A stretch of 64,000 bases of DNA from Candidatus Latescibacterota bacterium (lineage in GTDB: Bacteria > Latescibacterota > UBA2968 > UBA8231), in the NCBI GenBank assembly GCA_965248265.1, contig CBDFJF010000001.1, forward strand, positions 224,001 through 288,000, in the 5' to 3' direction. The translations under genes were made by a program, and so were the position numbers. A model generated the notes under the pieces. It searched no databases, was not told the DNA's origin, and worked only from the letters and a program-made list of their open reading frames with translations. Positions 6,606 to 25,870 of this stretch are shown here, in pieces (position 1 is the first letter of the stretch; every line of letters starts with the position of its first letter).

Positions 6606-7283
6606 CTAGGCTACGAATTGGGCTGCCCACTGGCAACTTACATCAGCCACTTCCTCGAACACCTCCTGCTGTGTGCGCCCCGACCTTTTCAGAACCTTGT
6701 ACCCATGGTCCGCACCTTCCAGCCAGTGCATGCGAAAGCGATCGGACAAACCGGCCAGGACCTGCTCCATCAGATCTCTCTGGCAGAGACTGTCTCGCGT
6801 ACCGTTGAAGCACAGAACCGGAACCTTGATATCCGGTAGATGAGCGTCGCGGAGCCGTTCTGGTCTGCCTGCCGGATGCAGGGGGTAGGCGAGCAGGATC
6901 AATCCATCACAGGCGTCCCCCTCCGCCGCCAGCATCGACGCGGTACGGCCACCCATCGACTGGCCACCGATGAGGAGGATCTTCGGGTTCAGCTGCGAGC
7001 GCACGTACTCGATGACACAACGGTAACTGGCCATCAGTTTCGGCATACGGTCCGGCGCCCGACCTCCCCGATGCGTGTAGGAGAAATTGAAGCGGACGAC
7101 GTCGAACCCGGACCTGGTAAACGCCCGTGCGAAGGCCACCATGGTCTTGTGCTCCATGTTGCCACCGGCTCCGTGGGCCATGATATAGACGATATCGCCG
7201 GGGGAGTCGGCTAAAACGTCATGGATTGCCGTGGTCTCCCCATCATCGCCGCCACCGATGGTCCAGATCTGCGTTTCACTCAT
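6606..7283 (-). CDS. Alpha/beta hydrolase (dienelactone hydrolase/KANL3-like)
   Basis: HGAGG, GGQSMGG nucleophile elbow, YPLHP, GTRD, ADH. Confidence 0.85.
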   Translation of the reverse strand: MSETQIWTIGGGDDGETTAIHDVLADSPGDIVYIMAHGAGGNMEHKTMVAFARAFTRSGFDVVRFNFSYTHRGGRAPDRMPKLMASYRCVIEYVRSQLNPKILLIGGQSMGGRTASMLAAEGDACDGLILLAYPLHPAGRPERLRDAHLPDIKVPVLCFNGTRDSLCQRDLMEQVLAGLSDRFRMHWLEGADHGYKVLKRSGRTQQEVFEEVADVSCQWAAQFVA

Positions 7284-7329
7284 ACCCGACTCCATCACAA
7301 TGGTTGTTTTTGACTATTCTCCTCGAATC

Positions 7330-8670
7330 ATGACACTGGCGCAACTCAACGATCTGCTGTCCAACAGGTGCCATACCGGGCACGTCTGGCTCGGGGAACG
7401 CGTCCTGCCGGAGCTGGCGAGGTTCACCGCCACCTTGCCGGAGGCTTCCGCCCGCCGATGCCTTGTGGTCGCTGACACCATCACCTGGGATGTAGCCGGC
7501 GCCGCGATCTACGAGCATCTGCGCGAAGCCGGGTACGGTCTGAGCCGTCATCTGATCGATACCTCACCGGATCGCGGCACCGTCAAGCCCATTTGTGACG
7601 ACGAGCAGGTGAATCGGACCTCACAGCAGATTCACACAGTCGATGCCAGTCTGGTAATCGCCGTTGGTGCCGGCACCGTCAACGATGTCGCCAAACTCGC
7701 CGCCTTTCAGTCCGATCGCCCCTATCTGGTCATACCCACGGCCACGTCCATGAACGGCTACACCTCCTCCACCGCCGCCGTCATGTCTTCAGGCATCAAG
7801 GAGAGCGTCCCCTGCCGCGGACCGATCGCCTGCCTGGCGGATACCGACATCCTGCGGCAGGCCCCGGCACGCATGATCGCCGCCGGCCTCGGCGACCTGG
7901 TGTCTCGCAGTGTCAGCGTGGCTGACTGGTACCTCAGCCACCGATTGCTGGGGACGGAGTACTCGCCCACGGCTATTGCCCTTATCGAGGAAAGCGGCCG
8001 TCTTTGTGACGACCAGGAACAGGCGCTGCCCGGGCGCGACCGCATTGCCGTGGCCAGCCTCATGAGTGCCCTGTTGATCTCCGGGGAGGCCATGACACAG
8101 GCCGGCTCTTCGGCTCCTGCCAGCGGCGCCGAGCACCTCATCAGCCACTACCTGGACATGACCCGCGGCCTGACCGATGCCGGTGATCTCCACGGCTGCC
8201 AGGTTGGCGTCGCTACCATCACTATGGCTGCTTTCTACGAGCAACTGCTTGCCTTGAGGCTGGACCGGGATCTCGACATGGCAGGTCTGACTGCGTCACA
8301 TCGTTCCTGGGCTGAAGTGCAGAGGGACCTGCAAGAACATTTCGGAGGTCTGGCCACGGCGATGCTGCCGCATGCCAGGCGGAGATGCCTGTCCCGGTTG
8401 CAATTGAGTGAGCGGCTGACCCATCTGCAGTCAGAGTGGCTTTCAATCAAGGTTGGATTGACTGCCCTGCTGCGACCTTCCGCCAGTGTGAACGAACAAC
8501 TCCGGGCAGCGGGAGCTCCGGTTTCCTTCAGCGCCCTGGGAGTCGAGCCGGCCCGCGCCCGCGCTGCCGTGCGGTTTGGTCGCCACATTCGAGCGCGCTA
8601 CACCATACTCGATCTGCTGTCAGAAATCGGCTTGTTGGACGGGTGGGTCGATGCGTTGCGCTTGCAATGA
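7330..8670 (+). CDS. sn-glycerol-1-phosphate dehydrogenase (AraM/EgsA-like)
   Basis: AVGAGTVNDVAK, PTATSMNGYTS, AGLGD, PASGAEHLISH and LHGCQVG motifs. Confidence 0.8.
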   Translation: MTLAQLNDLLSNRCHTGHVWLGERVLPELARFTATLPEASARRCLVVADTITWDVAGAAIYEHLREAGYGLSRHLIDTSPDRGTVKPICDDEQVNRTSQQIHTVDASLVIAVGAGTVNDVAKLAAFQSDRPYLVIPTATSMNGYTSSTAAVMSSGIKESVPCRGPIACLADTDILRQAPARMIAAGLGDLVSRSVSVADWYLSHRLLGTEYSPTAIALIEESGRLCDDQEQALPGRDRIAVASLMSALLISGEAMTQAGSSAPASGAEHLISHYLDMTRGLTDAGDLHGCQVGVATITMAAFYEQLLALRLDRDLDMAGLTASHRSWAEVQRDLQEHFGGLATAMLPHARRRCLSRLQLSERLTHLQSEWLSIKVGLTALLRPSASVNEQLRAAGAPVSFSALGVEPARARAAVRFGRHIRARYTILDLLSEIGLLDGWVDALRLQ

Positions 8671-12695: not shown

Positions 12696-14666
12696 ATGGC
12701 GGAAATGCAGACCAAAAAAGCCCTTCTCATCTCCCCCGCTTTCCCGGACGACTCGTTCTGGAGCTACAAGCATGTCATTCGCTACGCGGGACGGAAGGCC
12801 TCTTTTCCACCCCTGGGCGTGTTGTCGTTCGCCGCGATGATGCCGGAAGACTGGGATTTTGAACTGCTCGACATGAACATCCGCCACTGGTCCACACGGA
12901 CTCTGCGCAAGAAAATCCAGCAAGCCGATGCCGTCTTCGCCGGCGCCATGAACATTCAACGCGACTCCCTCGTGGAGTTGCTCGAAGGGCCGGCCAGGGG
13001 CACGGACACGCCCTGGATTCTCGGCGGCCCCATGGCCTCGACTTATCGGGACACGGTATTGCACCCGACGACCGAATCTGACCAGATACTGCATGACGGA
13101 CTGGATCTGTTGGTGTGGGGAGAAGCTCAACCATGGATTGACGATCTGGTCAAGTGGCTGGAGGAGCACCCCAAACACCGCGACGAAACGCCGCATCTGT
13201 TGATTCCCGAACGCGTGCTACAGGAACCGGAGGGATCACGCAAGTACTTGCTCGACAAGGAAATTTTCAAGCCGCTGGACAATCTCCCGGTGCCGCGCTG
13301 GGACCTGATCAACGTTCAGGACTACCGGGCCATGATGATCCAGACCACAGCCGGTTGTCGTTTTCGCTGCAACTTCTGCGACATCGTCCAGTTCAATGGT
13401 GGTTTCGCCCGCGCCAAGGACAAAACCAGTGTCATGCGGGAGCTGAAGAGCATCTACGACTCCGGATTCAGAGGCTCCGTCTTCACCGTCGATGACAACT
13501 TCGTCTCAGAGCCCGAGGCGATGGAGAACATTCTCGAGGGGATGATCGAGTTTCAGCGCGAGCACGATTATCCGTTCAATTTCTTTACCCAAGCGAGCGT
13601 CGATCTCGGCAAGGAAGGGCTCGAATACCTGGTACCGATGATGCGTCAGGCCGGATTCACCGCCGTCTTTCTCGGCATCGAGAATCCGGATCCCAGCGCG
13701 CTGAAAGAGATGAACAAGATTCAGAACGTGAAAACCAGGCCGGAGGACACGGTCCGGGTTCTGCAACAGCAGGGCATCGAGGTCTTCGCGGGATTCATCT
13801 TCGGCACCGATGGCGACACCCGTCAAACAGCGGATCTGATCGTCGACTTCGTCACCAACAACGGGATTTTCTCATCGATGACGGGCAAGCTGACGCCGAT
13901 GCCTCACACGCCCCTGTACGTCGACCTGAAGGAACAGGGACGGTTGATTGGAGCCGTGGACGCGCGTAACAACATCGACGAGTCGGCCCAGTTTCGGCCC
14001 ACGATGGGGGCCGAGCAGCTGGATGAGGGCTTCACCCACATTTTGTCGACGCTGTTTGACCGCAAGGCGCTCTACGGTCGCGCGCGCGATGTCCTCGATC
14101 GCGTCGATCTGCACATCTTCCGCGGCCGCGTACTCACTCGCGGTGAGTACATGGCGGTCGGGCACTCAGTTGTCAGACAGGGCCTGAAACGCTTGGACGG
14201 CGAGTACTTCCGCTTCCTCAGAGAGGCCTTGAAGCGTGATCGCCTCAGTTTGCAGGAAATCCGTGGCGAAGCGACACGGTTCACGGACATGTGGAACTCG
14301 GTGAGACAATCAGCTCGCGACCGCCTCGAGCTCGAAGAGCAGGACGTCAAGCGTTTCACGCAGATGCTGCAGTACGCACAGGACGCGTTGGTCCGCTATG
14401 GTCCCGACAAGGGGCTCGCCGAGGTACGAGATTTCGTCCAGGGGTTCAAGGAATCTCTCGGCAAGGGCGATGTCGCGTTGGAGCAGGGGCGCATGGTGTA
14501 TGAAAGAGCCATGGTTTACTGCGAGGCCAGGATGGAGCACTTCAAGTTTCCGGGAGTCTATCTGACGCGTGCCTTCGAACTGTGCATCATCGGCAACCAC
14601 TACAGGATTTGTGCCGACAATGTGCTGCGGCGTGCTGACAGCGACAACATGATGTCGCCTGTATAA
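12696..14666 (+). CDS. B12-binding radical SAM protein (HpnP-like, DUF4070 C-terminus)
   Basis: SFWS..FPPLG N-terminal B12-binding region; GCRFRCNFC; VDDNF; FFTQAS; GFIFGTDGD. Confidence 0.85.
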   Translation: MAEMQTKKALLISPAFPDDSFWSYKHVIRYAGRKASFPPLGVLSFAAMMPEDWDFELLDMNIRHWSTRTLRKKIQQADAVFAGAMNIQRDSLVELLEGPARGTDTPWILGGPMASTYRDTVLHPTTESDQILHDGLDLLVWGEAQPWIDDLVKWLEEHPKHRDETPHLLIPERVLQEPEGSRKYLLDKEIFKPLDNLPVPRWDLINVQDYRAMMIQTTAGCRFRCNFCDIVQFNGGFARAKDKTSVMRELKSIYDSGFRGSVFTVDDNFVSEPEAMENILEGMIEFQREHDYPFNFFTQASVDLGKEGLEYLVPMMRQAGFTAVFLGIENPDPSALKEMNKIQNVKTRPEDTVRVLQQQGIEVFAGFIFGTDGDTRQTADLIVDFVTNNGIFSSMTGKLTPMPHTPLYVDLKEQGRLIGAVDARNNIDESAQFRPTMGAEQLDEGFTHILSTLFDRKALYGRARDVLDRVDLHIFRGRVLTRGEYMAVGHSVVRQGLKRLDGEYFRFLREALKRDRLSLQEIRGEATRFTDMWNSVRQSARDRLELEEQDVKRFTQMLQYAQDALVRYGPDKGLAEVRDFVQGFKESLGKGDVALEQGRMVYERAMVYCEARMEHFKFPGVYLTRAFELCIIGNHYRICADNVLRRADSDNMMSPV

Positions 14667-16331: not shown

Positions 16332-17090
16332 TTAGAGCCTGCAGACCTCATACGCCTGCCGCAGTGATGCCACGGGGTCTCCCAGGGGCACGAATTCGTG
16401 CCCGACAAATCCGTCAAAACCAGTTTCTTCGATCGCCTTGATGACAGCCGGATAGTAGATCTCCTGGTTTTCATCCAGTTCGTTGCGCCCTGGATTGCCG
16501 GCGGTGTGGTAGTGGCCGAAGTACCGGTTGTACTCACGAATCGTCCGAATCAGATCCCCTTCCATGATCTGCATGTGGTAGATGTCGTAGAGCAGCTTCA
16601 CCCTGGGTGATCCCACACGCTCTATCACCTCGACCCCCCACGAGGTACTATCGCATTGGTACTCGGGGTGATCCACTTTGCTATTGAGCAGCTCGAGAAC
16701 CAGGTCCACCCCAGCCTCTTCCGCGGCGCCGGCTACCCGACTCAACCCTGCCGCCGTGACCTCGACTCCCTCTTCGTCGTCGTCAACGTGGCGATTCCCC
16801 GAAAAACACATCAGCCCGTGAATTCCATGCTTCTGCGCGTGCTCGAGATTCTCGAGAACTTCGGCCTCAATACGATCATGATTCGACCGCTTGTTCAGCC
16901 CGTCCGTCAAGGTCGTATGGCCGCCGATGGCCGCGATCTCGAGGCCGGCATCTCGGATCGCCTGCCAGTGTTCGGCCGGAACTAAATCGAAGCCGGCGTA
17001 GCCGATATCAGCCACGGCCGCGATCAGCTCATTCGGGCTCAGCTGCTTTCCCCCGAAGCACCACCAGGAAACTGAATGACGTATGGTCAA
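16332..17090 (-). CDS. hyi: Hydroxypyruvate isomerase family TIM barrel protein
   Basis: ELLNSKVDHP, LLYDIYHMQIMEG, HYHTAGNPGRNE, GHEF. Confidence 0.85.
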   Translation of the reverse strand: MTIRHSVSWWCFGGKQLSPNELIAAVADIGYAGFDLVPAEHWQAIRDAGLEIAAIGGHTTLTDGLNKRSNHDRIEAEVLENLEHAQKHGIHGLMCFSGNRHVDDDEEGVEVTAAGLSRVAGAAEEAGVDLVLELLNSKVDHPEYQCDSTSWGVEVIERVGSPRVKLLYDIYHMQIMEGDLIRTIREYNRYFGHYHTAGNPGRNELDENQEIYYPAVIKAIEETGFDGFVGHEFVPLGDPVASLRQAYEVCRL

Positions 17091-19015
17091 CTGACAGACT
17101 TTCGCGCGTCTTCGACGAAGCGCTTGATGCGGGGGCCAAGGGCTTTGATCAAGGCCGTCAACTCGTCCTTGTTCAGCAATGGCTGTTCGAGGAATCCCGC
17201 TGGTAAGAACCCGCTGACCGTGTGTAGGGCATCCTCTTCGACGGCAGCGGCGACCGGGAAGGCTGAATCCTTGGGAAAAGGGTGCAGCACCTGGCCGAAC
17301 ACATCGGCGATGCCAACCAGGAAGGTCAGGGAATCATCAATGCTGGGCTGGTGGTGTGACAGCACCACGTTCCCCAGTTGCTCCCCCAAACCCCACTTGC
17401 GGATCAGGATTTCGCCGGTCACTGTGTGGGTCAGTCCCCCCGCCACCTCCTGTTCGGCATGCAGCATCGATGTCGCCCACTGCTGGGATCGCAGTTCATC
17501 CAACAACAATGGGAACAGGCCGGGGTAGGAGTTCACCATCACCCCTTTGCCGATGTCGTGCATGGTGCCGGCCACGAAGGCACCGGCCTGCGTTGGGTCG
17601 AGCCTCAATCGCTTGGCAAAATTGATCTGTTTGAGAAGATCCATCGTCGGGCTGTCCAGCCCGAGGGTCGCCAGTTCCGAGGTACCTCCCTCTTCGTCGT
17701 CGCCACTCTCAACCGGCAGCGATAGAACGTGCGCAGCAAAGCCTACGCTGAGATTGTGTAACCAGAACTCCTGAAGATCGAATCCCACTTCCTGAATGGA
17801 GGTAAACGTCTTGCGCATGGCTTCGCTGGCCACCAGTCCGGCCACCGTCTTCTTGCCCAGCAGGACCACAGCACGGTCGACTTCGTTCACTTCGACGGTT
17901 AGTCCCAGCGAGGCCGAGTTCGCATGCTTGAGCAAGGTCGCACTCGTCATCGGATCGAGCTTTATGACCTCTATCCATTCCTTGAGATCGCTTTTTGGAT
18001 CTCTGGACAGGGCTGAAATCTTCTCGAACACCTGCGGCAACGACGGCAGCGTCGCCATGGTCTCGACGTCCTCGACGATGCGGCCACGCACAGCCTGGGG
18101 ACTGACTGCATCGGCTTCAGCCTTCACCTTGCGCTTGGAGACACTGGTCAGATGGGCGGCGAGAAACTCTTCGAGTTTGCCGACCAGGGCGGAGCGGCGG
18201 ACGACTTTCAGACCGATTTTCTTCAGCCCCTCCCGGTGCGCCGGCGGGATCTGATTGTTGTCTTCCAGGATGAGGTAGATCGGCAGTGTGGCACCCTTGT
18301 TGATGTGCATCATCCGCGCAATAACGACCGGGTTTCCGTGGCATTTGGACGAGATCAACAGCGCCTTCAACCAGACCTTGGAGGTTTCCTTCTTCAGGAA
18401 CAGGACGATGTTGGTGGTCTGGCTTTCGACCATGTAGCCGGCATTCAGTCCAACCTGAGACTGGTTGCACTTCTGTAATCCCTGCCAACCCCTAGCCAGG
18501 TACTGGGCGACAGCGTTGTTGGGAGGTGCCATCAGCTCTTCGAGTGAGTTGATCGCTTCGCCAAACAGGATGTGTGGGCTGGTAATGTTGTCCTTGTAGG
18601 TGGAGCGCCCCTCCCACAGCTGGGTGAGTTGATCCTTGAGCACAACTCGCTGGTGGGAGCGATGAACCTCGAAGATCTTCTTCTTCAGCTGGTCCGCCTG
18701 GAATGGCTTGGCCAGAAAGCCGTTGACCCCAGCCTGCGACGCGGCCAGGATGTCTTCCTTACCCGCCTTGCCCGACACCACCACGATGGGCAGGATCTTG
18801 AACTGCTCCGCTTCCCGCACTTCGCTGACCAGCTCGATGGTCTCGGATTCCGACAATGGCAAGTCTGCGATGAGCATGTCGAAGGAGGACTCGTAGAGAG
18901 CAGTCCGGGCACGGTCGCAATCCGGCGCCACTACCGCATCCAAGCTCCACTTGCCGAGCAGCTTGACCAGCGCGTCGCCGATTTTCGGCTCTTTTTCTAT
19001 CAGCAGGATGTTCAT
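17087..19015 (-). CDS. Response regulator receiver plus HDOD domain protein
   Basis: N-terminal receiver (FLAKPF); LPSLP, DPMTSATLLKHANS, FWLHN, MHDIGK, HH. Confidence 0.9.
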   Translation of the reverse strand: MNILLIEKEPKIGDALVKLLGKWSLDAVVAPDCDRARTALYESSFDMLIADLPLSESETIELVSEVREAEQFKILPIVVVSGKAGKEDILAASQAGVNGFLAKPFQADQLKKKIFEVHRSHQRVVLKDQLTQLWEGRSTYKDNITSPHILFGEAINSLEELMAPPNNAVAQYLARGWQGLQKCNQSQVGLNAGYMVESQTTNIVLFLKKETSKVWLKALLISSKCHGNPVVIARMMHINKGATLPIYLILEDNNQIPPAHREGLKKIGLKVVRRSALVGKLEEFLAAHLTSVSKRKVKAEADAVSPQAVRGRIVEDVETMATLPSLPQVFEKISALSRDPKSDLKEWIEVIKLDPMTSATLLKHANSASLGLTVEVNEVDRAVVLLGKKTVAGLVASEAMRKTFTSIQEVGFDLQEFWLHNLSVGFAAHVLSLPVESGDDEEGGTSELATLGLDSPTMDLLKQINFAKRLRLDPTQAGAFVAGTMHDIGKGVMVNSYPGLFPLLLDELRSQQWATSMLHAEQEVAGGLTHTVTGEILIRKWGLGEQLGNVVLSHHQPSIDDSLTFLVGIADVFGQVLHPFPKDSAFPVAAAVEEDALHTVSGFLPAGFLEQPLLNKDELTALIKALGPRIKRFVEDARKSVS

Positions 19016-19052
19016 CGCGGATGTTGGCGGAATGCGGAAGTCGATTCGGGTG

Positions 19053-19862
19053 CTACGTTTCCTGTTTGCCGACAGCGCCGGTGATCAGTGCTTCCGCCCG
19101 TTTGGGGCTGACAAGATTCAAGCCGAGCAGGGCCTTGAGCTTCCAGGGGATGATCAAGTCGCGCTGCCGGTTTTGCATGGCCTTGGCGATGGCGGCACAG
19201 GCGTCTTCGACAGAGACTGACTCCTTGCTGTGCTTGCGCGACGACTCACCCAGGGCATCGCCGTCGGCGCCAAAGGCCCGTTTGCGCAAATCGGTTCCCC
19301 GCAGCCAATGGGGCAGGACGGTCAACACGTCCACGCCGCTGTCGACAAGCTCCATTCTCAGAGCCTCACAGAAGCCCTGCAGAGCATGTTTCGAGGCAAC
19401 ATACCCAGTGTGGCGGGGTACCCCGATTTTACTCTGGATGGAGGTAATCGCCACGATCATGCCCCCGCTGGCCTTTAGATGGGGCAACGCATAATAGATG
19501 CAGTTCACGGCGCCGAGGTAATTGACCTCCATCAGTTTGCGGAAGATGCCTAGATCCTCGACATCCTCGAACGAGGCCCACATGCTGATCCCGGCATTGG
19601 CTATCACATAATCGACGCGGCCGTACTGGGCCACCGTCTTGTCGATCAACCCCTTGCAGTCCATCTCATCAGTCACATCGCCGATCACGGCCTGCGCCTG
19701 ACCCCCGAGAGAACGACAGCTCTCCGCCACCTCCTTCTGCCTGTCCTCTTCCGGCGAAAACAACGTCAGGTTGGATCCAGCGGTGGCGAACTCCTGCGCC
19801 AGTGCGGCGCCGAGCCCGGATGAGGCTCCCGTGATGATGACGGATTTGCCCTCGTGACCCAT
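19053..19862 (-). CDS. Classical SDR oxidoreductase (11bHSD1/DHRS7-like)
   Basis: ITGASSGLG, NAGIS, MEVNYLG, YVASKHALQGF; start overlaps stop of upstream AGPS. Confidence 0.9.
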   Translation of the reverse strand: MGHEGKSVIITGASSGLGAALAQEFATAGSNLTLFSPEEDRQKEVAESCRSLGGQAQAVIGDVTDEMDCKGLIDKTVAQYGRVDYVIANAGISMWASFEDVEDLGIFRKLMEVNYLGAVNCIYYALPHLKASGGMIVAITSIQSKIGVPRHTGYVASKHALQGFCEALRMELVDSGVDVLTVLPHWLRGTDLRKRAFGADGDALGESSRKHSKESVSVEDACAAIAKAMQNRQRDLIIPWKLKALLGLNLVSPKRAEALITGAVGKQET

Positions 19863-21709
19863 CAGCTCGCATCCGAGTCGCCGGCGAAGACGCCGTTGCC
19901 GATACCGAATACGTTCTGCGGATCCATCGCCTTTTTCGTCTGCCGCATCACGGCGATCGCGTTCTCGGATTGCACCTGGGGCAGGAAGCCGTGCCGCAAT
20001 TTACCGACTCCGTGGTGGTGGGAAAGAGAGCCACCGTTGTCGAGGATGACCTGTCGCAGGGCACGCTCAATGTCGTGGTAAACATCGTGAGGGTGATCCA
20101 GCCCTTTGGCGGAAAACCCCAGCGTGAAGTAGATGCACACCCCGCTGTGGTAAGTCTGGGTCACCCGATACGCCAGGTACGGCATGCCGGCGATACCCGC
20201 CTCCTGCGTTCGCTTGCTGAGTTCCTCCTGCACAGCGGCAGTGACGACATGTATGCGATCCCACGGAACAGAGGTCTCGAAACTCTCTCCCATGATCTGA
20301 AACTGGTTGAAGAAATCCCGGATGTAGGCGATCCCGAAGGTGAGGGTGTAACCGCGCTTGCCGTTGCTGGCACCGGCGCTCAACGCTCCGTGTTTCTTCG
20401 CGAGTCTGAAAATCACCTCGCGTTGGTGATCGACCTCACCCTTGGTACCCTCCATCACGATCGTCGAGGCCACCATCTCGAATGGCTTGAAACGCTTGAT
20501 GTGCAGGACGACGAACTTCTGCACCTTGTCCATGATGCTCTTGAAGAACGACGGGGCCGGCTTGAGTGCCTGGCCGAAGCGAAACTCGAAATTGTTTACC
20601 AGGCGGATGCTCGCCGGCAGCCCACCTTCCTGCCGAAGGTCCCGCAGAAACTGTACTCCGACTTCGAACCGGGGGAACACCAGCGCTCCGTATTCACGAA
20701 CGTCGGGAAGTGGATGGATCTTGATTGTCGCCCTGGTGATGATACCGAAGTTGCCCTCACTGCCGAACAGGAACACCCGCGGCTGAATGCCGACCGAGTT
20801 GCGTGGTGTCGCGTGACGGGTTTCGATCTCTCCCGTCGGGGTCACCAGGGTGGCTTCGAGGACGATGTCTTCGATGTTACCGTAGCGGTTCTTCTTCATG
20901 CCGCTGGCATTGGTGGCGATCCAGCCTCCCAGGGTCGACAACTCGACGCTGTCGGGATCATGGCCGGAGGTGAAACCGTGCTTGCCGAGTGACCGCTCCA
21001 GTTCCTTGCCCGAAATCCCGGCTTCGACGCAAGCTACCTGATTGGCTTCGTCGAGAGAGACAATGTGGTTCATTCGCCGCATGTCGACGGAAACGATCGT
21101 TCGCTGCTCGGACGCGGGGAGGGTCAAGGCTCCGCTGACGTTGGTGCCGCCGCCGTAGGGCACCAGGCACATGTCGCTGTCGTTGGCCAGTTCCACCAGG
21201 CGACTCACGTCCTCGTCCCTCTGCGGATAAACCACCACATCAACCAGCCGGCGCAGCGGACCTATGTACAGGAGGCGATAGACCTCGTCAACGCTGACTT
21301 GGCCATGGCTGTGAACCAGGCGATCCTTGTCGTCGACGGAGATTTGATCCGCTGCCAGAACCTTGCCCAGGGCGGCGCGAAGTCCCTCATCCAGTTTCGA
21401 AGGAGCGATCTTCTTGTCGGCGATTTCCGGAACGACATCTTCCTGTCGAATCGGCAGCCCCAGTACTTCCTCGGCGAACGGTATGAAATTGGGCATGCTG
21501 TACCCGGAAAGCGGGTAGCGACTGCCCGTGACCTTGACGCTTCGGGGGCCGTCGAACTCGAAAACCGTGTCGGTGTACCCCCAACGGTGATTCTGCCGCT
21601 CGCCATCCGACTGGTCGTAATAGACATCCAGCGTGTCCTGATCGCCCTGCTTAGCCACCAGGAAGAGGACGACTATGACAGCCAGTGCGGCGGGAATCAA
21701 GAATTCCAT
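19862..21709 (-). CDS. Alkyldihydroxyacetonephosphate synthase (AGPS/ADPS)-like FAD protein with N-terminal TM anchor
   Basis: WGYTD, PYGGGTNV, GHDPDS..STLGGWIATNASGMKKNRYGNIED, RVTQTY..GVCIYF, GGSLSHHHGVGK. Confidence 0.85.
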   Translation of the reverse strand: MEFLIPAALAVIVVLFLVAKQGDQDTLDVYYDQSDGERQNHRWGYTDTVFEFDGPRSVKVTGSRYPLSGYSMPNFIPFAEEVLGLPIRQEDVVPEIADKKIAPSKLDEGLRAALGKVLAADQISVDDKDRLVHSHGQVSVDEVYRLLYIGPLRRLVDVVVYPQRDEDVSRLVELANDSDMCLVPYGGGTNVSGALTLPASEQRTIVSVDMRRMNHIVSLDEANQVACVEAGISGKELERSLGKHGFTSGHDPDSVELSTLGGWIATNASGMKKNRYGNIEDIVLEATLVTPTGEIETRHATPRNSVGIQPRVFLFGSEGNFGIITRATIKIHPLPDVREYGALVFPRFEVGVQFLRDLRQEGGLPASIRLVNNFEFRFGQALKPAPSFFKSIMDKVQKFVVLHIKRFKPFEMVASTIVMEGTKGEVDHQREVIFRLAKKHGALSAGASNGKRGYTLTFGIAYIRDFFNQFQIMGESFETSVPWDRIHVVTAAVQEELSKRTQEAGIAGMPYLAYRVTQTYHSGVCIYFTLGFSAKGLDHPHDVYHDIERALRQVILDNGGSLSHHHGVGKLRHGFLPQVQSENAIAVMRQTKKAMDPQNVFGIGNGVFAGDSDAS

Positions 21710-21851
21710 AAGCAAACTCTGAGCGCAACACGAGGTGAGCCAGCATTTCACGGGACCCGGGTGTACTTCTCAATAGTTTAAGGATCAGACAGAAGTACGC
21801 CAAGCGGGAATCGGTCTTTGCGGTTGTTTTTACGTCGGTTACGTCAGCTAC

Positions 21852-22625
21852 TTACAACGGCCATACACTTCCCGCCATGATCCCACCGTCGACGTAGATC
21901 ACCTCGCCGGTCACAAAATCAGAGGCCGGAGCGGCCAGAAAAACAGCGGTACCCACCATATCCTCAGGTGTACCCGGCCTCCGTGCAGGCGTTCGATCGA
22001 TGCACCATTCGCGGAAATCTGCCTGTTCCCACATGTGGGCGTTGATGTCGGTCATGATGAAACCCGGTGCCAGTGCGTTCACCTGGATATTGTGTGGCGC
22101 CAACTCAACGGCCAATCCCTTGGTCATCTGCCCAAGCGCCCCCTTGCTGGTGGCGTAGGCCGAAATCTTGGGCAGCCCCATACCGGTCGCAAGAGAGGCC
22201 ACATTGATAATCTTGCCTCCACCCCCCTCTACCATCGACCCGCGCACTTCCTTACACAGGAAGTACGGCCCCTTGCTGTTCGTGTTCATGATGAGGTCGT
22301 AGCTCGATTCTTCCACCTCCTCCAGCGGCTGGCGAACCGTGGTCGCGGCGACGTTCACAAGGATGTTGATGGGGCCCAGTCCCGCAGTAACCTGTCCGAC
22401 CGCGGCTGGGATGGCATCCATCCGGGAGACATCCAGAGGAACAGCCAACCCACGCACGCCCGTTTCCGCGATCTGCGCCACGACGGCGTCTATGTCACTC
22501 GCGGTCCGTGCCCCCACCGCCACATCCGCCCCGGCCTCGGCCAAGCCCAGAGCGATCGCCTTGCCGATGCCACGACTGCCGCCGCTCACGAACGCGGTCT
22601 TGCCGGATAGATCGAAGAGCTTCAT
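21852..22625 (-). CDS. SDR oxidoreductase (gluconate 5-DH/KduD-like)
   Basis: GGSRGIG, YATSKG, NALAPG, FVTGEVIYVDGG. Confidence 0.9.
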   Translation of the reverse strand: MKLFDLSGKTAFVSGGSRGIGKAIALGLAEAGADVAVGARTASDIDAVVAQIAETGVRGLAVPLDVSRMDAIPAAVGQVTAGLGPINILVNVAATTVRQPLEEVEESSYDLIMNTNSKGPYFLCKEVRGSMVEGGGGKIINVASLATGMGLPKISAYATSKGALGQMTKGLAVELAPHNIQVNALAPGFIMTDINAHMWEQADFREWCIDRTPARRPGTPEDMVGTAVFLAAPASDFVTGEVIYVDGGIMAGSVWPL

Positions 22626-22635
22626 ACCGTGTTTC

Positions 22636-23070
22636 CTATTCGTAAATCCCCAGGAGCTCGATTTCGAAAATCAGTACCGAACAGGGCGGGATCGTCGGGG
22701 TGTCGTCATCCCCGTACGCCAGTCGAGGCGGGATCGTCAGCTTCGCCATGCCCCCGCCCTGAAGCATCTGGAGTCCTTCGGTCCAGCCAGCGATCACCCC
22801 TGAAAGCGGGAAGGAGGAAGGGCGCCCGCGTTCAATGGAGCTGTCAAAGACGCGGCCCTCGGCGAAGCGGCCCTCGTAATGGACCTGCACCCGGTTGTGT
22901 GGTTCCGGCTTGGGACCGTACCCCTGTTTCAGTTCGAGAAACACCAGTCCTGATTCCGTGCGAATCGCTCCCTCCTCCTCCGCGGCGGCGGCCAGCACCG
23001 CCTCGTTCGCCGCGGTGGCGCAGGGATCCTCGCAAGCGACCAGGAGGTGGCCGAGCGCGATCCAAGCCAT
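22636..23070 (-). CDS. FKBP-type peptidyl-prolyl isomerase
   Basis: VHYEG, FDSS, VIAGWTEGLQ, IPPRLAYG, IPPCSVLIFEIEL. Confidence 0.92.
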   Translation of the reverse strand: MAWIALGHLLVACEDPCATAANEAVLAAAAEEEGAIRTESGLVFLELKQGYGPKPEPHNRVQVHYEGRFAEGRVFDSSIERGRPSSFPLSGVIAGWTEGLQMLQGGGMAKLTIPPRLAYGDDDTPTIPPCSVLIFEIELLGIYE

Positions 23071-23077
23071 GGCCTGG

Positions 23078-24715
23078 CTAGAACTTTGGAGCAACGGCCT
23101 CTTCCTTCACCATCACTTCGATGAGCGCGGGACGCCCCTCGTCGTTGGCAGCCATGCCGCGTTGGAAGGCGGCGACCAACTCGTCCGGCGACTCTATGCG
23201 CTCGGCGTACGCGCCCAGAGCCTCTCCCAGCTTGGCGTATTCTCCTCCAAGCTTGTTGGCGTCGTGATGCTCGGCGATGTAGGGCAGGTAGGAACTGTAT
23301 TCCGTCATCACCCCGTTGTTGAGGACGACGGTCATGATCGGAATGGATGCCCTGACAGCGGTCTCGATGTCGAGACCGGCCATGCCGAAGGCGGCATCTC
23401 CCATGACATTGACGACCGTCTTTTCCGGTGCGGCCAGCTTGGCTCCGATAGCGAGTCCCAGACCGTAACCAAGCTGGGTTGATTTTCCCCAACCGATATA
23501 ACCGCGCGGCTTGTTGCATTCCCAGAACGGGACCATCTGATTTCGCGGGTAGCCCGAATCATGGGTGATGATGGTGTTATCGACGTCCACCGCCTTGGCG
23601 AGTTCGGTGATCACTCGGTACGGATTGATGGGAATCTCATCCGAATGCAGTCGAGGGTCCCACTCCTCAAGGAACGCGCTTTTGACGCTGGCGACTTCGG
23701 CCACTACGCCAGCCGTATCGGACCGGCCCTCGGCGCTTGTCTGTCGTTTCACTTCTTCGATCATCTGTCGCAGCACGATCTTGGCATCCCCCAGGGCACC
23801 GCAGTTGATGCGATGATCCTTGCCGATCTCCTCACCGCAATTGGTCACCAGACCCAGAGTCACGCCTGGAGGAATCGGCGCTGTAAAGTTGGTCTTGGAA
23901 AACCCGGTGCCGATGCCGAGGACAAGATCGGCCTTGTTCAAGAAATGGCTGATCATAGGCGGGCCGGTGTTGCCGGCGGCACCCAGGGCCAGCGCGTGGC
24001 TTTCTGGAAAACCGCTCTTGCCGCACAGCGACGTCATCACGGGAATCTTCGTCAGCTCGGCGAACTCCACCAGCTCCTCCGTCGCCTCCGCCCACATCAC
24101 ACCGTGGCCGGCGCAGATCACTGGACAGGAGGCGGACATCAGATCCTCGACCAGGTTGCGCACATCGTCGTCGTCAGCCGCCGAGCGGTAAGTCTTGACC
24201 GGGGTGTAGGCAACGTCGGCGGCGGGATACTCCTCATTGCCTAGATCATTCGGGACTTCGAGGATTACGGGCCCCGGCCTGCCGTGGCGCAGCTGACTGA
24301 AGGCCATGTGCATGAATTCGGGGATGCGGTCTACCAGGTTGATCTCTCCCGCCCATTTGGTCACTCCCCGGTAATTCGGCGTAGACTGAAAATTCGGATG
24401 GGTCTGGGCGCGGTCGCGAGACTGCCCCCCCGGCAGCAACAGCACCGGAATCGAGTCGGCGTATGCCTGGGCGACACCACCAAAGGCATTCTCCGCTCCC
24501 GCACCGTACTGCATCACGAACACGCCGATGTTCTTCCCGTTGGTGGTTCGGCTGAAGCCGTCCGCTATGTTGACGCCGGCCCGCTCCTGACGGCAGATGA
24601 TCGGCCTGATGCCCTCCTTCGCCGCCTCGTCCAGCAGCGCGTTCATCGGGAAGGCCGCCAGCCACTCCACCCCCTCCGCCTTGAGGATCTTCGCGATTGC
24701 CCTGTTGCCATTCAC
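23078..24715 (-). CDS. Thiamine pyrophosphate-requiring enzyme (acetolactate synthase-like)
   Basis: RQER, GRPGPV, GDAAFGM...LNN TPP motif. Confidence 0.9.
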   Translation of the reverse strand: MNGNRAIAKILKAEGVEWLAAFPMNALLDEAAKEGIRPIICRQERAGVNIADGFSRTTNGKNIGVFVMQYGAGAENAFGGVAQAYADSIPVLLLPGGQSRDRAQTHPNFQSTPNYRGVTKWAGEINLVDRIPEFMHMAFSQLRHGRPGPVILEVPNDLGNEEYPAADVAYTPVKTYRSAADDDDVRNLVEDLMSASCPVICAGHGVMWAEATEELVEFAELTKIPVMTSLCGKSGFPESHALALGAAGNTGPPMISHFLNKADLVLGIGTGFSKTNFTAPIPPGVTLGLVTNCGEEIGKDHRINCGALGDAKIVLRQMIEEVKRQTSAEGRSDTAGVVAEVASVKSAFLEEWDPRLHSDEIPINPYRVITELAKAVDVDNTIITHDSGYPRNQMVPFWECNKPRGYIGWGKSTQLGYGLGLAIGAKLAAPEKTVVNVMGDAAFGMAGLDIETAVRASIPIMTVVLNNGVMTEYSSYLPYIAEHHDANKLGGEYAKLGEALGAYAERIESPDELVAAFQRGMAANDEGRPALIEVMVKEEAVAPKF

Positions 24716-24886: not shown

Positions 24887-25870
24887 ATGCCAGACAATCC
24901 AGTCATATCCGCCGACCAACTGCGTCAATTCGAGCAGGAAGGTTATCTGCTCGTCAAAGGCCTGTTGGATCCGGCAGAGGATCTCGAACCGGTAATCGCC
25001 GAATACGCCGAAGTCCTCGATCAGCTGGCTGGAGAACTGTTCGCGGACGGCGTTATCAGTTCGACCTACGGCGACCTGCCCTTCGGCGAACGTCTGATCG
25101 CGGTGGTCAGCGACAGCGGCCAGGTCCATCAGCAGTATTTTGATTTCTCTCTGCCGCAGAACGGGGTCGAGGCTGATACCCCGTTCTGGGCTGGTCCCGC
25201 TGTCTTCCGTATGCTGCGGAACGAACGGTTGCTGGATGCCGCCGAGTGCTTCGTCGGTCCCGAGATTTACTCCAACCCGGTTCAACACGTGCGGCTCAAG
25301 TCACCCGAGCACGTCAACCCGGTCAACGAAGCTACCGGAACGGTAAAGGATGGCGTAACCCCGTGGCATCAGGATACGGGTGTGGTGTTGCCTGAAGCTG
25401 ATGAGACGAACATGCTGACGGTGTGGTTTCCACTGACCGATGCGACACTCCATCACGGCTGCCTGCAAATCGTCCCGGGCAGCCACCACGGGGGTTTGGT
25501 GCGGCACTGTCCCGGGAGGCCCCATGGTCTCGAAATCCCAGAGAACGTCCACGACAGGGCGGGGGCCATCCCGATGCCGATGGAGCGTGGCGACGTCCTC
25601 TTCCTGACCCGTCTCACCATTCATTCATCACTGCCGAATATCAGCGACGAGGTGCGCTGGAGCTTCGATCTGCGCTACCACCCGATCGGACAACCCACCG
25701 GCCGCAGCATGTTCCCCGGCTTCATTGCGCGCAGCCGATCGAATCCCGCAAGCGAACTGCATGACGCGGTGGAATGGGAGCGCATGTGGCGCGACGCCAG
25801 AGACCACCTCGCCCAGATCGACAAAACCCCGTTCAACCGCTGGGCTGCCGGTCACCCAGCCTGCGCCTGA
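24887..25870 (+). CDS. Phytanoyl-CoA dioxygenase (PhyH) family 2OG-Fe(II) protein
   Basis: TPWHQD, GCLQIVPGSH, H-SLPN, RWSFDLRY. Confidence 0.9.
   Translation: MPDNPVISADQLRQFEQEGYLLVKGLLDPAEDLEPVIAEYAEVLDQLAGELFADGVISSTYGDLPFGERLIAVVSDSGQVHQQYFDFSLPQNGVEADTPFWAGPAVFRMLRNERLLDAAECFVGPEIYSNPVQHVRLKSPEHVNPVNEATGTVKDGVTPWHQDTGVVLPEADETNMLTVWFPLTDATLHHGCLQIVPGSHHGGLVRHCPGRPHGLEIPENVHDRAGAIPMPMERGDVLFLTRLTIHSSLPNISDEVRWSFDLRYHPIGQPTGRSMFPGFIARSRSNPASELHDAVEWERMWRDARDHLAQIDKTPFNRWAAGHPACA

What the first reader, a model, noticed from the sequence alone, without database searches (positions are those of the whole stretch)
19053..21709. Eukaryote-type ether-lipid module: AGPS-like synthase translationally coupled to a DHRS7B-like reductase
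Seen: the FAD protein carries motifs I recall as very close to peroxisomal alkyl-DHAP synthase (WGY.D, ASGMKKN.YGNIED, RVTQTY..G.CIYF, SLSHHHGVGK). It also has an N-terminal TM anchor. Its TGA overlaps the ATG of an SDR of the 11bHSD1/DHRS7 type. Established: in animals AGPS forms the ether bond, and DHRS7B (PexRAP) has been reported as an alkyl-DHAP reductase for the next step. Inference: a two-gene bacterial operon for alkyl-glycerophosphate synthesis, distinct from the myxobacterial elb and anaerobic Ger/PlsAR routes.
Basis: partly seen in the sequence, partly recalled or inferred. Interest (0 to 1): 0.72.

Follow-up and report, generated by a model that had tools for sequence, protein, structure and literature searches.

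The report
Bacterial ether-lipid synthase and reductase pair
Two overlapping bacterial genes encode the enzyme that forms the ether bond of ether lipids and, most likely, the reductase for the next step; the first enzyme was already known in bacteria, but the conserved pairing and its two partner genes appear not to have been described.

Summary
Window 19862-21709 (-) encodes a 615-aa membrane-anchored protein that matches guinea-pig alkyl-DHAP synthase (AGPS) at E 2.9e-148. Its TGA shares one base with the ATG of a 269-aa classical SDR (19053-19862).

The pair is conserved. An SDR orthologue follows AGPS on the same strand in 66 of 80 related loci from at least seven phyla. In 151 genomes of the window's phylum, 104 have both genes, 4 AGPS only and none the SDR only.

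In 25 of the 80 loci the cluster is FAR-X-AGPS-SDR. X is an unannotated 650-aa protein whose C-terminal domain has the PlsC/GPAT acyltransferase fold and an H-x4-D/E motif. The window's genome keeps FAR and X at two other loci.

Most likely route: X makes acyl-DHAP, FAR supplies fatty alcohol, AGPS makes alkyl-DHAP, and the SDR reduces it to 1-alkyl-glycerol-3-phosphate. All of this is inferred; nothing was assayed.

Bacterial AGPS is already known: the Myxococcus MXAN_1676 operon, and BLAST screens that include Latescibacterota. My searches found no paper on the SDR pairing or on X. "DHRS7B-like" could not be tested directly.

Unexpectedly, GpsA and PlsY were found in none of the 115 sampled genomes of this class, and PlsX and PlsB not in the window's genome. 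The DHAP route may therefore be their main entry into lipid synthesis.

The parts
19862..21709 (-). AGPS (alkyl-DHAP synthase) orthologue, 615 aa plus TGA stop; FAD_binding_4 and FAD-oxidase_C domains
   Evidence: ORF. Pfam. PDB 4bby at E 2.9e-148 and 2uuu at 1.5e-89. Falls in the clade with eukaryotic AGPS.
21650..21706 (-). N-terminal hydrophobic segment of AGPS (about residues 2-20), read as a membrane anchor with the catalytic domain in the cytoplasm
   Evidence: Hydropathy maximum of 2.66 at residue 1. Conserved in 15 of 16 orthologues and followed by K/R residues. The topology is inferred, not shown.
19053..19862 (-). Classical short-chain dehydrogenase/reductase, 269 aa plus stop; proposed acyl/alkyl-DHAP reductase
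   Evidence: adh_short 7.6e-46. NCBIfam NF004825 at 283.8 bits against a cut-off of 215, with only a generic name. Orthologue directly downstream of AGPS in 66 of 80 loci.
19860..19864 (-). TGATG junction: the AGPS stop and the SDR start share base 19862
   Evidence: Sequence read. In the 66 related loci the AGPS stop and SDR start overlap in 15, lie 0-30 nt apart in 21, 31-150 nt in 18 and more than 150 nt in 12.

Best explanation
The two genes are the last two steps of a bacterial 'peroxisome-type' route to 1-O-alkyl-glycerol-3-phosphate.

The membrane-anchored flavoenzyme AGPS exchanges the acyl chain of 1-acyl-DHAP for a fatty alcohol, giving 1-O-alkyl-DHAP. The co-translated SDR reduces the C2 keto group, probably with NADPH, to give 1-O-alkyl-sn-glycerol-3-phosphate. 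That product then enters ordinary phospholipid assembly.

The two substrates come from genes elsewhere in this genome. A eukaryote-type fatty acyl-CoA reductase (G000:C2:3857966-3859720) supplies the alcohol. 'X' (G000:C1, about 2732390-2734360), a divergent GPAT/PlsC-fold acyltransferase, is proposed to make acyl-DHAP. In many other bacteria these two genes sit directly upstream, as FAR-X-AGPS-SDR.

Shown here: homology, fold, gene order and co-occurrence. Inferred: every catalytic activity, the cofactor, the membrane topology, and whether the final lipids are alkyl or alkenyl.
For: - AGPS identity: PDB 4bby at E 2.9e-148 over residues 41-605, including the N-terminal domain; the next enzyme family reaches only 3.5e-24. 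It falls in a 67-row clade (99% local support) with five labelled eukaryotic AGPS, apart from the YgcU-like group.
- Pairing: an SDR orthologue (44-72% identity) lies downstream on the same strand in 66 of 80 loci. Their record titles name Latescibacterota, Gemmatimonadota, Planctomycetota, Poribacteria, Acidobacteriota, Neomarinimicrobiota and Trueperaceae. The two genes are within 150 nt in 54 of those 66.
- Phylum sample of 151 genomes: AGPS in 108 and the SDR in 104. That is 104 with both, 4 with AGPS only, 0 with the SDR only and 43 with neither (compared by hand).
- Both genes are kept even where they are unlinked (G007, G078, G087, G094). In genus g11 the SDR is missing from 5 of 5 genomes and AGPS from 4 of 5 (the fifth, G081, has only a 46%-identical AGPS), while X (5 of 5) and FAR (4 of 5) remain.
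- In G107 a divergent AGPS (46% identity) is followed, with a 4-nt overlap, by a different 269-aa SDR that is only 30% identical.
- Partners: FAR has NAD_binding_4 plus Sterile domains and matches PDB 7eoz at 1.2e-75. FAR and X lie upstream of AGPS in the same 25 of 80 loci.
- X residues 364-647 match PlsC 5kym at Z 14.6 (219 residues aligned, rmsd 3.5) and human GPAT1 at Z 11.1. Foldseek's top hits are PlsC, GPAT, PatA and LpxM. The H-x4-D/E motif is present in 19 of 19 sequences.
- Fusion proteins with the same order, FAR-acyltransferase-AGPS, exist in a diatom and in metagenomic proteins.
- The SDR family conserves a basic loop, PHWLRGTxLRxxAxGxDG..SRxHS. An Arg follows strand beta-2 in 43 of 64 members. 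Reading that Arg as a sign of NADPH preference rests on a recalled rule.
Against: - No enzyme assay or lipid analysis exists for these genes or for this lineage.
- The catalytic Arg, Tyr and HHH are equally kept in the YgcU-like group, which sits in sugar-type operons, so they do not prove ether-bond chemistry.
- The SDR's curated family carries only a generic name. Its closest solved relatives are ordinary SDRs.
- The window's own copy has Pro where most orthologues have the Arg after beta-2.
- 14 of 80 loci lack the SDR. Two of these are cut by contig ends; seven are Chloroflexota loci with unrelated neighbours.
- X gives no Pfam, NCBIfam or PDB sequence match. Its preference for DHAP over glycerol-3-phosphate is a guess.
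- The sponge-symbiont preprint reports no short-chain plasmalogens despite agps hits (10.64898/2026.06.23.733905, passages read).
- The genomes compared are kin, so the co-occurrence counts overstate the number of independent events.
Confidence: 0.62

Rival explanations
1. The SDR is mainly a bulk acyl-DHAP reductase. In this class the DHAP route (X, then the SDR) would replace GpsA/PlsXY/PlsB as the entry to all glycerolipids, and AGPS would only be a side branch. This overlaps the best explanation and is scored separately as the novel case.
For: - GpsA (PF07479) was found in 0 of 61 class genomes and in 29 of 151 phylum genomes, none of them in families f1-f4.
- PlsY shows the same pattern: 29 of 151, and 0 of 41 in the family.
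- PlsX, PlsB and the GpsA N-terminal domain were not found in the window's genome, while the controls ring.
- X is the mirror image: f1 61/63, f2 30/30, f3 19/19, f4 2/2.
Against: - All five genomes of genus g11 keep X but lack the SDR, so the SDR is not indispensable where X is present.
- A probable glycerol kinase could supply glycerol-3-phosphate (517 bits, below the curated cut-off of 590).
- The substrate of X is unknown.
- A second acyltransferase of 451 aa exists in the genome.
- The pattern may reflect only one or two evolutionary events.
Confidence: 0.3
2. The SDR works on the alcohol side of the pathway. It would interconvert fatty aldehyde and fatty alcohol to feed AGPS, or to recycle alcohol, and would not reduce alkyl-DHAP.
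For: SDRs commonly reduce aldehydes. The closest solved relative by family profile is clavaldehyde dehydrogenase, at 9e-41. Tight coupling to AGPS is equally expected for an enzyme that supplies its substrate.
Against: - A complete alcohol-forming, eukaryote-type FAR is present in the genome and in the clusters, so the step is already covered.
- Without an alkyl-DHAP reductase the pathway has no enzyme for its obligatory keto reduction.
- The conserved Arg/His-rich substrate loop fits a phosphorylated substrate better than a plain aldehyde (inference).
Confidence: 0.1
3. The FAD protein is not an ether-bond synthase. Like the YgcU-like relatives, it would act on another DHAP-like or sugar-phosphate substrate, and the SDR would belong to that other pathway.
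For: The 'catalytic' residues are shared with the YgcU-like group. NCBIfam has no AGPS model, and every hit falls below its cut-off.
Against: - Full-length similarity to mammalian AGPS is far stronger than to anything else.
- In the tree it sits with eukaryotic AGPS.
- It lies in operons with FAR and a glycerolipid-type acyltransferase, and eukaryotic fusions have the same order.
- The genome's true YgcU-like paralogue sits beside a class II aldolase and an FGGY kinase instead.
- The M. xanthus homologue is reported to be required for an ether-lipid route (PMC13012113, passages read).
Confidence: 0.06

Closest known systems
Peroxisomal AGPS (guinea pig, PDB 4bby; Dictyostelium, 2uuu) followed by the acyl/alkyl-DHAP reductase DHRS7B (PexRAP)
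   Same: The domain pair and the full-length alignment are the same, including the N-terminal domain. Arg419, Tyr578 and the HHH loop are kept. The pathway logic is also the same: a classical SDR follows AGPS (PMC7517302 and PMC13200781, passages or abstract read).
   Different: The bacterial AGPS carries an N-terminal membrane segment, which presumably replaces the peroxisomal targeting region (recalled). The SDR has no N-terminal membrane segment, unlike DHRS7B. Orthology between the SDR and DHRS7B or Ayr1 was not testable here. The genes are translationally coupled in an operon.
[quoted passage not shown]
   Same: It is a bacterial AGPS-based ether-lipid route with FAR, an acyltransferase and a Rossmann-fold reductase-like gene in one operon. 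The AGPS is experimentally implicated (PMC13012113 and preprint 10.1101/2025.10.10.681575, passages and section 11 read).
   Different: Here FAR and the acyltransferase are separate proteins, and in this genome they are unlinked. The acyltransferase X is a family without any Pfam match, not a GNPAT-type PF01553 domain. The reductase is a classical SDR: PF00106 at 7.6e-46, against only 1.6e-4 for the epimerase family. No M. xanthus sequence was available for direct comparison.
elbB-elbE cluster and ElbD (myxobacteria, Acidobacteria subdivision 4)
   Same: It is a bacterial alkyl-ether route that uses a FAR module. Many relatives of the window's genome carry a 1400-aa FAR / AMP-binding / acyltransferase protein that resembles descriptions of ElbD.
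   Different: No AGPS is involved in the elb route. The window's own FAR is a 585-aa stand-alone protein. The gene pair in question is not part of an elb-like cluster.
PlsA/PlsR and Ger (anaerobic reductive conversion of ester to ether or vinyl ether)
   Same: The end products are bacterial ether glycerolipids.
   Different: The enzymes and the chemistry are unrelated, and no homology with the two genes was seen. The comparison rests on literature passages (PMC13159169; 10.64898/2026.06.23.733905).
YgcU-like FAD-linked oxidoreductases
   Same: They share the fold and both Pfam domains, and they keep Arg, Tyr and HHH. The genome has one such paralogue, at G000:C2 (L093:4829-6469).
   Different: They are only 26-35% identical and lack the first 70-100 residues of the AGPS alignment. 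They form a separate tree group and sit in sugar-type operons with an aldolase and an FGGY kinase.
Eukaryotic FAR-acyltransferase-AGPS fusion proteins (for example Thalassiosira profunda, 2461 aa)
   Same: The domain order matches the bacterial gene order FAR-X-AGPS.
   Different: Their acyltransferase domain is a recognisable PF01553 domain, while X is not. A profile comparison of X with one such fusion gives only 4.6% probability, although the H-x4-D blocks align. No SDR domain is fused.

Membership tests
Alkyl-DHAP synthase (AGPS, EC 2.5.1.26) | FAD_binding_4 plus FAD-oxidase_C architecture, about 600 aa | tested here: met
   Pfam E-values of 9.8e-39 and 5.3e-34; 615 aa.
Alkyl-DHAP synthase (AGPS, EC 2.5.1.26) | Full-length similarity to structurally solved AGPS, well separated from other FAD oxidases | tested here: met
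   4bby at 2.9e-148 (query 41-605) and 2uuu at 1.5e-89; the next family reaches 3.5e-24.
Alkyl-DHAP synthase (AGPS, EC 2.5.1.26) | Catalytic Arg419, Tyr578 and the His615-617 loop (guinea-pig numbering; their roles are recalled from the structural literature) | tested here: met
   R369, Y527 and H564-566 are present. The test does not discriminate: the same residues are kept in 25-27 of 27 YgcU-like proteins.
Alkyl-DHAP synthase (AGPS, EC 2.5.1.26) | Groups with eukaryotic AGPS rather than with YgcU-like proteins in a tree | tested here: met
   A 67-row clade with 99% local support holds five labelled eukaryotes. The tree is FastTree only, and no animal or myxobacterial sequences were available.
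Alkyl-DHAP synthase (AGPS, EC 2.5.1.26) | Acyl-DHAP plus fatty alcohol exchange activity | not testable with these tools
   Needs an enzyme assay.
Acyl/alkyl-DHAP reductase (DHRS7B/PexRAP, Ayr1; EC 1.1.1.101) | Classical SDR with a TGxxxGxG motif and a Ser-Tyr-Lys catalytic set | tested here: met
   TGASSGLG, S141 and Y154-x3-K158 are invariant in 25 of 25 aligned members.
Acyl/alkyl-DHAP reductase (DHRS7B/PexRAP, Ayr1; EC 1.1.1.101) | Orthology or closest similarity to DHRS7B or Ayr1 | not testable with these tools
   No DHRS7B or Ayr1 sequence or structure could be reached. As a proxy, 11beta-HSD1 takes ranks 3-21 in a family-profile search at about 2e-36, behind two unrelated SDRs.
Acyl/alkyl-DHAP reductase (DHRS7B/PexRAP, Ayr1; EC 1.1.1.101) | N-terminal transmembrane segment, as described for DHRS7B (PMC7517302) | tested here: not met
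   The Rossmann motif starts at residue 6, and the highest 19-residue hydropathy is 1.17.
Acyl/alkyl-DHAP reductase (DHRS7B/PexRAP, Ayr1; EC 1.1.1.101) | NADPH-type basic residue after strand beta-2 (recalled rule) | tested here: inconclusive
   Arg in 43 of 64 orthologues; the window's copy has Pro.
Myxobacterial AGPS operon (MXAN_1676-1674 type) | Adjacent fused FAR-GNPAT protein | tested here: not met
   FAR and X are separate genes in 25 of 25 clusters. In this genome they are unlinked from AGPS.
Myxobacterial AGPS operon (MXAN_1676-1674 type) | Third gene of the NAD-dependent epimerase/dehydratase (extended SDR) family | tested here: not met
   The partner is a classical SDR: PF00106 at 7.6e-46, against PF01370 at only 1.6e-4.
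GPAT/AGPAT (H-x4-D) acyltransferase superfamily, for partner X | Acyltransferase fold and H-x4-D block | tested here: met
   Z 14.6 to PlsC and 11.1 to GPAT1; Foldseek probability 1.0 to PlsC; H-x4-D/E in 19 of 19 sequences.
GPAT/AGPAT (H-x4-D) acyltransferase superfamily, for partner X | Match to the Pfam model PF01553 | tested here: not met
   No Pfam family at E 0.01 for three X proteins, and no NCBIfam hit.
GPAT/AGPAT (H-x4-D) acyltransferase superfamily, for partner X | DHAP as the acyl acceptor (GNPAT-like activity) | not testable with these tools
   Inferred only from gene order and from the missing GpsA.

The most novel reading that the evidence does not exclude
In this bacterial class (probably within Latescibacterota), GpsA and PlsY were found in none of the sampled genomes, and PlsX and PlsB not in the window's genome. 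On this reading the acyl-DHAP route is the main or only entry into glycerolipid synthesis. X acylates DHAP, and the SDR of this finding creates the glycerol stereocentre for ester and ether lipids alike, with AGPS as the branch point. This would be a non-orthologous replacement of the canonical bacterial glycerol-3-phosphate pathway by a 'peroxisome-type' pathway.
Probability: 0.3. Interest if true: 0.85.

Novelty: new variant of a known kind. Interest (0 to 1): 0.6.

Why it matters
- **Marker for ether-lipid producers.** Non-isoprenoid alkyl glycerol ethers are used as biomarkers in sediments, sea water and sponges, and their bacterial producers are largely unknown. Published screens count agps homologues by BLAST; for example PMC11868695 uses E below 1e-30 and identity of at least 30% (methods passage read). 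The YgcU-like group found here keeps the catalytic residues and reaches 29-35% identity to the window's AGPS, so such screens could plausibly over-count. This was not tested with their M. xanthus query. The AGPS-SDR pair, or the full FAR-X-AGPS-SDR cluster, is a more specific genomic marker.

- **A candidate for the missing acyltransferase.** X is an unannotated family whose 120 listed relatives are, where a source names them at all, called 'hypothetical protein' in all but one case. It is a candidate for the acyl-DHAP-forming step of this route outside myxobacteria.

- **Origin of the eukaryotic pathway.** The bacterial gene order matches eukaryotic FAR-acyltransferase-AGPS fusion proteins. 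AGPS is the one enzyme for which the PNAS study on the origin of eukaryotic plasmalogen synthesis reports insufficient phylogenetic signal.

- **A possible pathway replacement.** If the class-wide lack of GpsA and PlsY reflects a real replacement, it would be an exception to the textbook bacterial route. It can be tested directly by complementing an E. coli gpsA mutant.

Tried and rejected
- **Promoters and terminators.** The scan over 16800-22900 gave 2 promoter-like and 6 terminator-like sites, no more than in shuffled sequence (means 1.7 and 5.2). The operon boundaries stay unknown.

- **Apparent X-AGPS fusions.** A script suggested fusions in L052 and L055. This was an artefact of extending past a stop; the ORF listing shows separate genes.

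- **RNA evidence.** One metatranscriptome run (X11) gave three contigs of 156-188 nt inside AGPS only. None lay over the SDR or the junction. Contigs cannot show transcription, so no claim is made.

- **CarF/PEDS1.** PF10520 was not found, but the model rang in none of the 14 control genomes. The question of alkyl versus alkenyl products stays open.

- **ESM Atlas for the SDR.** It returned only generic bacterial SDR clusters.

- **Sequence searches for X.** The PDB profile search found nothing (best E 8.2). A profile comparison with a fusion protein gave 4.6% probability.

- **Catalytic residues as a membership test.** They do not discriminate between AGPS and the YgcU-like group.

- **G1P-dehydrogenase-like gene as the general glycerol-phosphate source.** Rejected: it is present in only 28 of 151 genomes, with f1 23/63 and f2 and f3 0.

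- **PhyH plus a TPP enzyme upstream as a peroxisome-like alpha-oxidation pair.** Not supported: the TPP enzyme's best solved relatives are BbmA and glyoxylate carboligase, ahead of 2-hydroxyacyl-CoA lyase.

- **Eukaryotic origin.** No animal or myxobacterial AGPS sequence could be obtained, so the question could not be addressed.

Full report
**Observation**

On the minus strand, an ORF of 615 aa (ATG at 21709, TGA at 19864-19862) is followed by one of 269 aa (19862-19053). The junction reads GCGAGCTGATGGGTC, so the stop and the start share one base. An upstream GTG at 21751 would add 14 residues, but orthologues align from the ATG.

Residues 1-19 are the most hydrophobic stretch of the protein (mean hydropathy 2.66). 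An equivalent segment followed by Lys/Arg is present in 15 of 16 aligned orthologues; the exception starts later and may be a short gene call. I read this as a membrane anchor that leaves the catalytic domain in the cytoplasm. That topology is an inference.

**What the first protein is**

- Pfam finds FAD_binding_4 and FAD-oxidase_C.
- Against all solved structures, the best matches are guinea-pig AGPS (4bby, E 2.9e-148, query 41-605 on chain 94-656) and Dictyostelium AGPS (2uuu, 1.5e-89). The next enzyme family reaches only 3.5e-24.
- NCBIfam has no model that it passes.
- Of 1.84 billion cluster representatives, 1009 match at E 1e-30 or better. Look-ups of 30 of them named five eukaryotic clusters (Pharyngomonas, Lagenidium, Chromera, an MMETSP protist, Thalassiosira) and three bacterial ones.
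- A FastTree tree of 95 rows puts the window's protein in a 67-row clade, with 99% local support, that holds all five labelled eukaryotes. A separate 27-row group holds the genome's own 547-aa paralogue.
- That paralogue lies beside a class II aldolase and an FGGY kinase. It matches AGPS structures only at 3.4e-56 and 5.3e-45.

One caution applies. Arg369, Tyr527 and His564-566 are also kept in 25, 27 and 27 of the 27 YgcU-like rows. The tree has no animal or myxobacterial sequences, because none could be obtained.

**What the second protein is**

It is a classical SDR (adh_short, 7.6e-46). It passes the NCBIfam model NF004825 (283.8 bits against a cut-off of 215), which carries only the generic name 'SDR family oxidoreductase'.

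As a single sequence its best solved relatives are assorted SDRs; 11beta-HSD1 first appears at rank 25. With a profile of 25 orthologues, 11beta-HSD1 fills ranks 3-21 (about 2e-36), behind clavaldehyde dehydrogenase (9e-41) and a yeast hydroxyacyl-CoA dehydrogenase (1.4e-40).

No DHRS7B or Ayr1 sequence could be reached, so 'DHRS7B-like' stays untested. Unlike DHRS7B, which has an N-terminal membrane segment (PMC7517302, passages read), this SDR starts directly with its Rossmann motif.

The family shows a strongly conserved, basic substrate-loop motif, and Arg follows strand beta-2 in 43 of 64 members. The window's copy has Pro there.

**Is the pair conserved?**

A scan of one genome per species gave 509 confirmed relatives of the AGPS, of which the best 80 loci were kept.

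- An orthologue of the SDR (44-72% identity) lies downstream on the same strand in 66 of the 80 loci.
- The AGPS stop and the SDR start overlap in 15, lie 0-30 nt apart in 21, 31-150 nt in 18 and more than 150 nt in 12.
- The record titles name Latescibacterota, Gemmatimonadota, Planctomycetota, Poribacteria, Acidobacteriota, Neomarinimicrobiota and Trueperaceae.

Of the 14 loci without the SDR:

- two are cut by contig ends (L049, L076);
- two are short contigs with about 1 kb of downstream sequence (L020, L021);
- two are Latescibacterota loci with other neighbours (L030, L035);
- one is a Planctomycetota locus (L077);
- seven are Chloroflexota loci, whose neighbours where examined were a hydantoinase and a Pro/Thr-rich protein.

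**Co-occurrence in the phylum sample**

In 151 genomes sampled from the window's phylum, AGPS (E 1e-80 or better) is in 108 and the SDR (E 1e-55 or better) in 104. Comparing the two tables by hand gives 104 genomes with both, 4 with AGPS only, none with the SDR only and 43 with neither.

- In 95 of the 104, the SDR lies within 2 kb downstream of AGPS on the same strand.
- In four (G007, G078, G087, G094) the genes are far apart, yet both are kept.
- In five they lie on different contigs of fragmented assemblies.

Of the four 'AGPS only' genomes:

- G020 has a partial SDR after AGPS.
- G107 has a divergent AGPS (46% identity) whose stop is overlapped by a different 269-aa SDR, only 30% identical.
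- G081 has a divergent AGPS standing alone.
- G093 is fragmented.

In genus g11 none of the five genomes has the SDR, and four lack AGPS. All five keep X and four keep FAR. These genomes are kin, so the counts reflect few independent events.

**Partners**

The window's genome has a 585-aa FAR with NAD_binding_4 and Sterile domains that matches PDB 7eoz at 1.2e-75. It sits on the other contig and is followed by lgt.

In 25 of the 80 loci a FAR lies about 2 kb upstream of AGPS. The same 25 loci carry a 640-690-aa gene, X, between FAR and AGPS. The window's genome has X at a third locus, 45% identical to the cluster copies.

X has no Pfam, NCBIfam or PDB sequence match. Among its 170 relatives (120 listed), the names that sources give are 'hypothetical protein', except for one JGI entry called '1-acyl-sn-glycerol-3-phosphate acyltransferase'.

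An AlphaFold model built from 19 sequences (pLDDT 81, pTM 0.86) gives these matches:

- Foldseek: PlsC, plant GPAT, PatA and LpxM.
- An independent aligner: residues 364-647 match PlsC at Z 14.6 (219 aligned, rmsd 3.5), human GPAT1 at Z 11.1 and squash GPAT at Z 9.6.

An H-x4-D/E block (P-[TSA]-H-[QR]-x-x-x-[DE]) is present in 19 of 19 sequences.

Long proteins with the domain order FAR-acyltransferase-AGPS exist in the diatom Thalassiosira profunda (2461 aa) and in metagenomic proteins. This is the same order as the operon. X is therefore the best candidate for the acyl-DHAP-forming enzyme. Its choice of acceptor is not shown.

**Missing canonical genes**

This result was not expected.

- PlsY, PlsX, PlsB and both GpsA domains were not found in the window's genome (92% complete), while the same searches ring in the control genomes that have these genes.
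- The GpsA C-terminal domain was found in 0 of 61 genomes of the class, and PlsY in 0 of 41 genomes of the family.
- In the phylum sample, GpsA and PlsY are each in 29 of 151 genomes. None of these is in families f1-f4 (0 of 114, and not in the window's own genome) or in f7 (0 of 1). Most other families have them: f5 1/1, f6 2/2, f8 5/5, f9 3-4/6, f10 10-11/13, f11 3/3, f12 1/1, f13 3/3.
- X is the mirror image: f1 61/63, f2 30/30, f3 19/19, f4 2/2, f7 1/1, f8 1/5 and none elsewhere.
- A probable glycerol kinase exists (517 bits, below its cut-off of 590).
- A glycerol-1-phosphate-dehydrogenase-like gene lies in the window at 7231-8670. It is too patchy (28 of 151 genomes) to explain the pattern.

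**Mechanism proposed**

1. X acylates DHAP.
2. FAR reduces acyl-CoA to fatty alcohol.
3. AGPS, at the membrane, exchanges acyl for alkyl.
4. The SDR reduces 1-alkyl-DHAP, and perhaps 1-acyl-DHAP, to the glycerol-3-phosphate level.

Homology, fold, order and co-occurrence are shown. All activities are inferred. Whether a vinyl ether is made is open, because the CarF search had no working control.

**Known or new**

Bacterial AGPS is established. M. xanthus MXAN_1676 lies in an operon with a fused FAR-GNPAT protein and an epimerase-family protein (PMC13012113 and its preprint; passages and section 11 read). BLAST screens report agps homologues in many phyla, including 67 of 92 Latescibacterota MAGs (PMC11868695, passages). 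They also report them in sponge symbionts (10.64898/2026.06.23.733905, passages) and in Ger-bearing genomes (PMC13159169, passages).

None of the passages read, and none of six literature searches, describes the AGPS-classical-SDR pair, the FAR-X-AGPS-SDR cluster, X, or the absence of GpsA/PlsY. Supplementary tables were closed and may list neighbouring genes. I therefore rate this a new variant of a known kind.

The organism is probably a member of Latescibacterota. I judge this only from the record titles of the nearest loci, not from a marker-gene tree.

Noticed in passing
G000:C1 about 2732390-2734360 (locus L091:8389-10356, + strand); outside the window: Protein X is a 656-aa unannotated family with no Pfam or NCBIfam match. 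It has a helical N-terminal part of about 360 residues and a C-terminal PlsC/GPAT-fold domain with an H-x4-D/E block. It lies between FAR and AGPS in 25 of 80 related loci.
   Followed up: yes
whole genome G000 and 150 genomes of its phylum: GpsA and PlsY were not found in any of the 114 sampled genomes of families f1-f4 or in G000, yet they are present in most other families of the phylum. PlsX and PlsB were not found in G000. The distribution mirrors that of X.
   Followed up: partly
window 7231-8670 (+): A 479-aa Fe-ADH_2 protein whose best solved relatives are glycerol-1-phosphate dehydrogenases (9h4x at 2.8e-46). It scores 216 bits on the NCBIfam G1P-dehydrogenase model, below the cut-off of 413. 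It is patchy in the phylum sample: 28 of 151 genomes, mostly in the window's own family. A G1P-type enzyme in a bacterium that lacks GpsA deserves its own look.
   Followed up: partly
window 12696-14666 (+): A 656-aa B12-binding radical SAM protein with a DUF4070 domain, about 4.4 kb from the SDR gene (19053). Enzymes of this general type include lipid-modifying ones (recalled). No link to the ether-lipid genes was tested.
   Followed up: no
G000:C2 (locus L093:4829-6469, - strand): A 547-aa AGPS-like paralogue of the YgcU-like group lies in a row with a class II aldolase and an FGGY kinase. It keeps the AGPS Arg, Tyr and HHH residues. The chemistry of this group is unclear.
   Followed up: partly
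locus L094:2668-6876 (genome G061) and many genomes of family f1: In relatives, the FAR is the N-terminal part of a protein of about 1400 aa with the order FAR / AMP-binding / acyltransferase (ElbD-like), followed by lgt. The window's genome has only the 585-aa FAR part, also followed by lgt.
   Followed up: partly
window 23078-24715 (-) and 24887-25870 (+): A TPP-dependent enzyme and a PhyH-family dioxygenase are divergently arranged just upstream of the AGPS region. I considered a peroxisome-like alpha-oxidation pair. The TPP enzyme is no closer to 2-hydroxyacyl-CoA lyase than to glyoxylate carboligase or BbmA.
   Followed up: partly
window 17087-19015 (-): A response-regulator receiver plus HDOD protein starts 38 nt after the SDR stop on the same strand. 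It might be co-transcribed. It was found in 0 of 80 related loci, so it is not part of the conserved module.
   Followed up: partly
locus L095:5675-6481 (genome G107): A second, unrelated-looking 269-aa SDR (30% identical to the window's) overlaps the stop of a divergent AGPS by 4 nt. This suggests that the reductase slot after AGPS has been filled more than once.
   Followed up: partly
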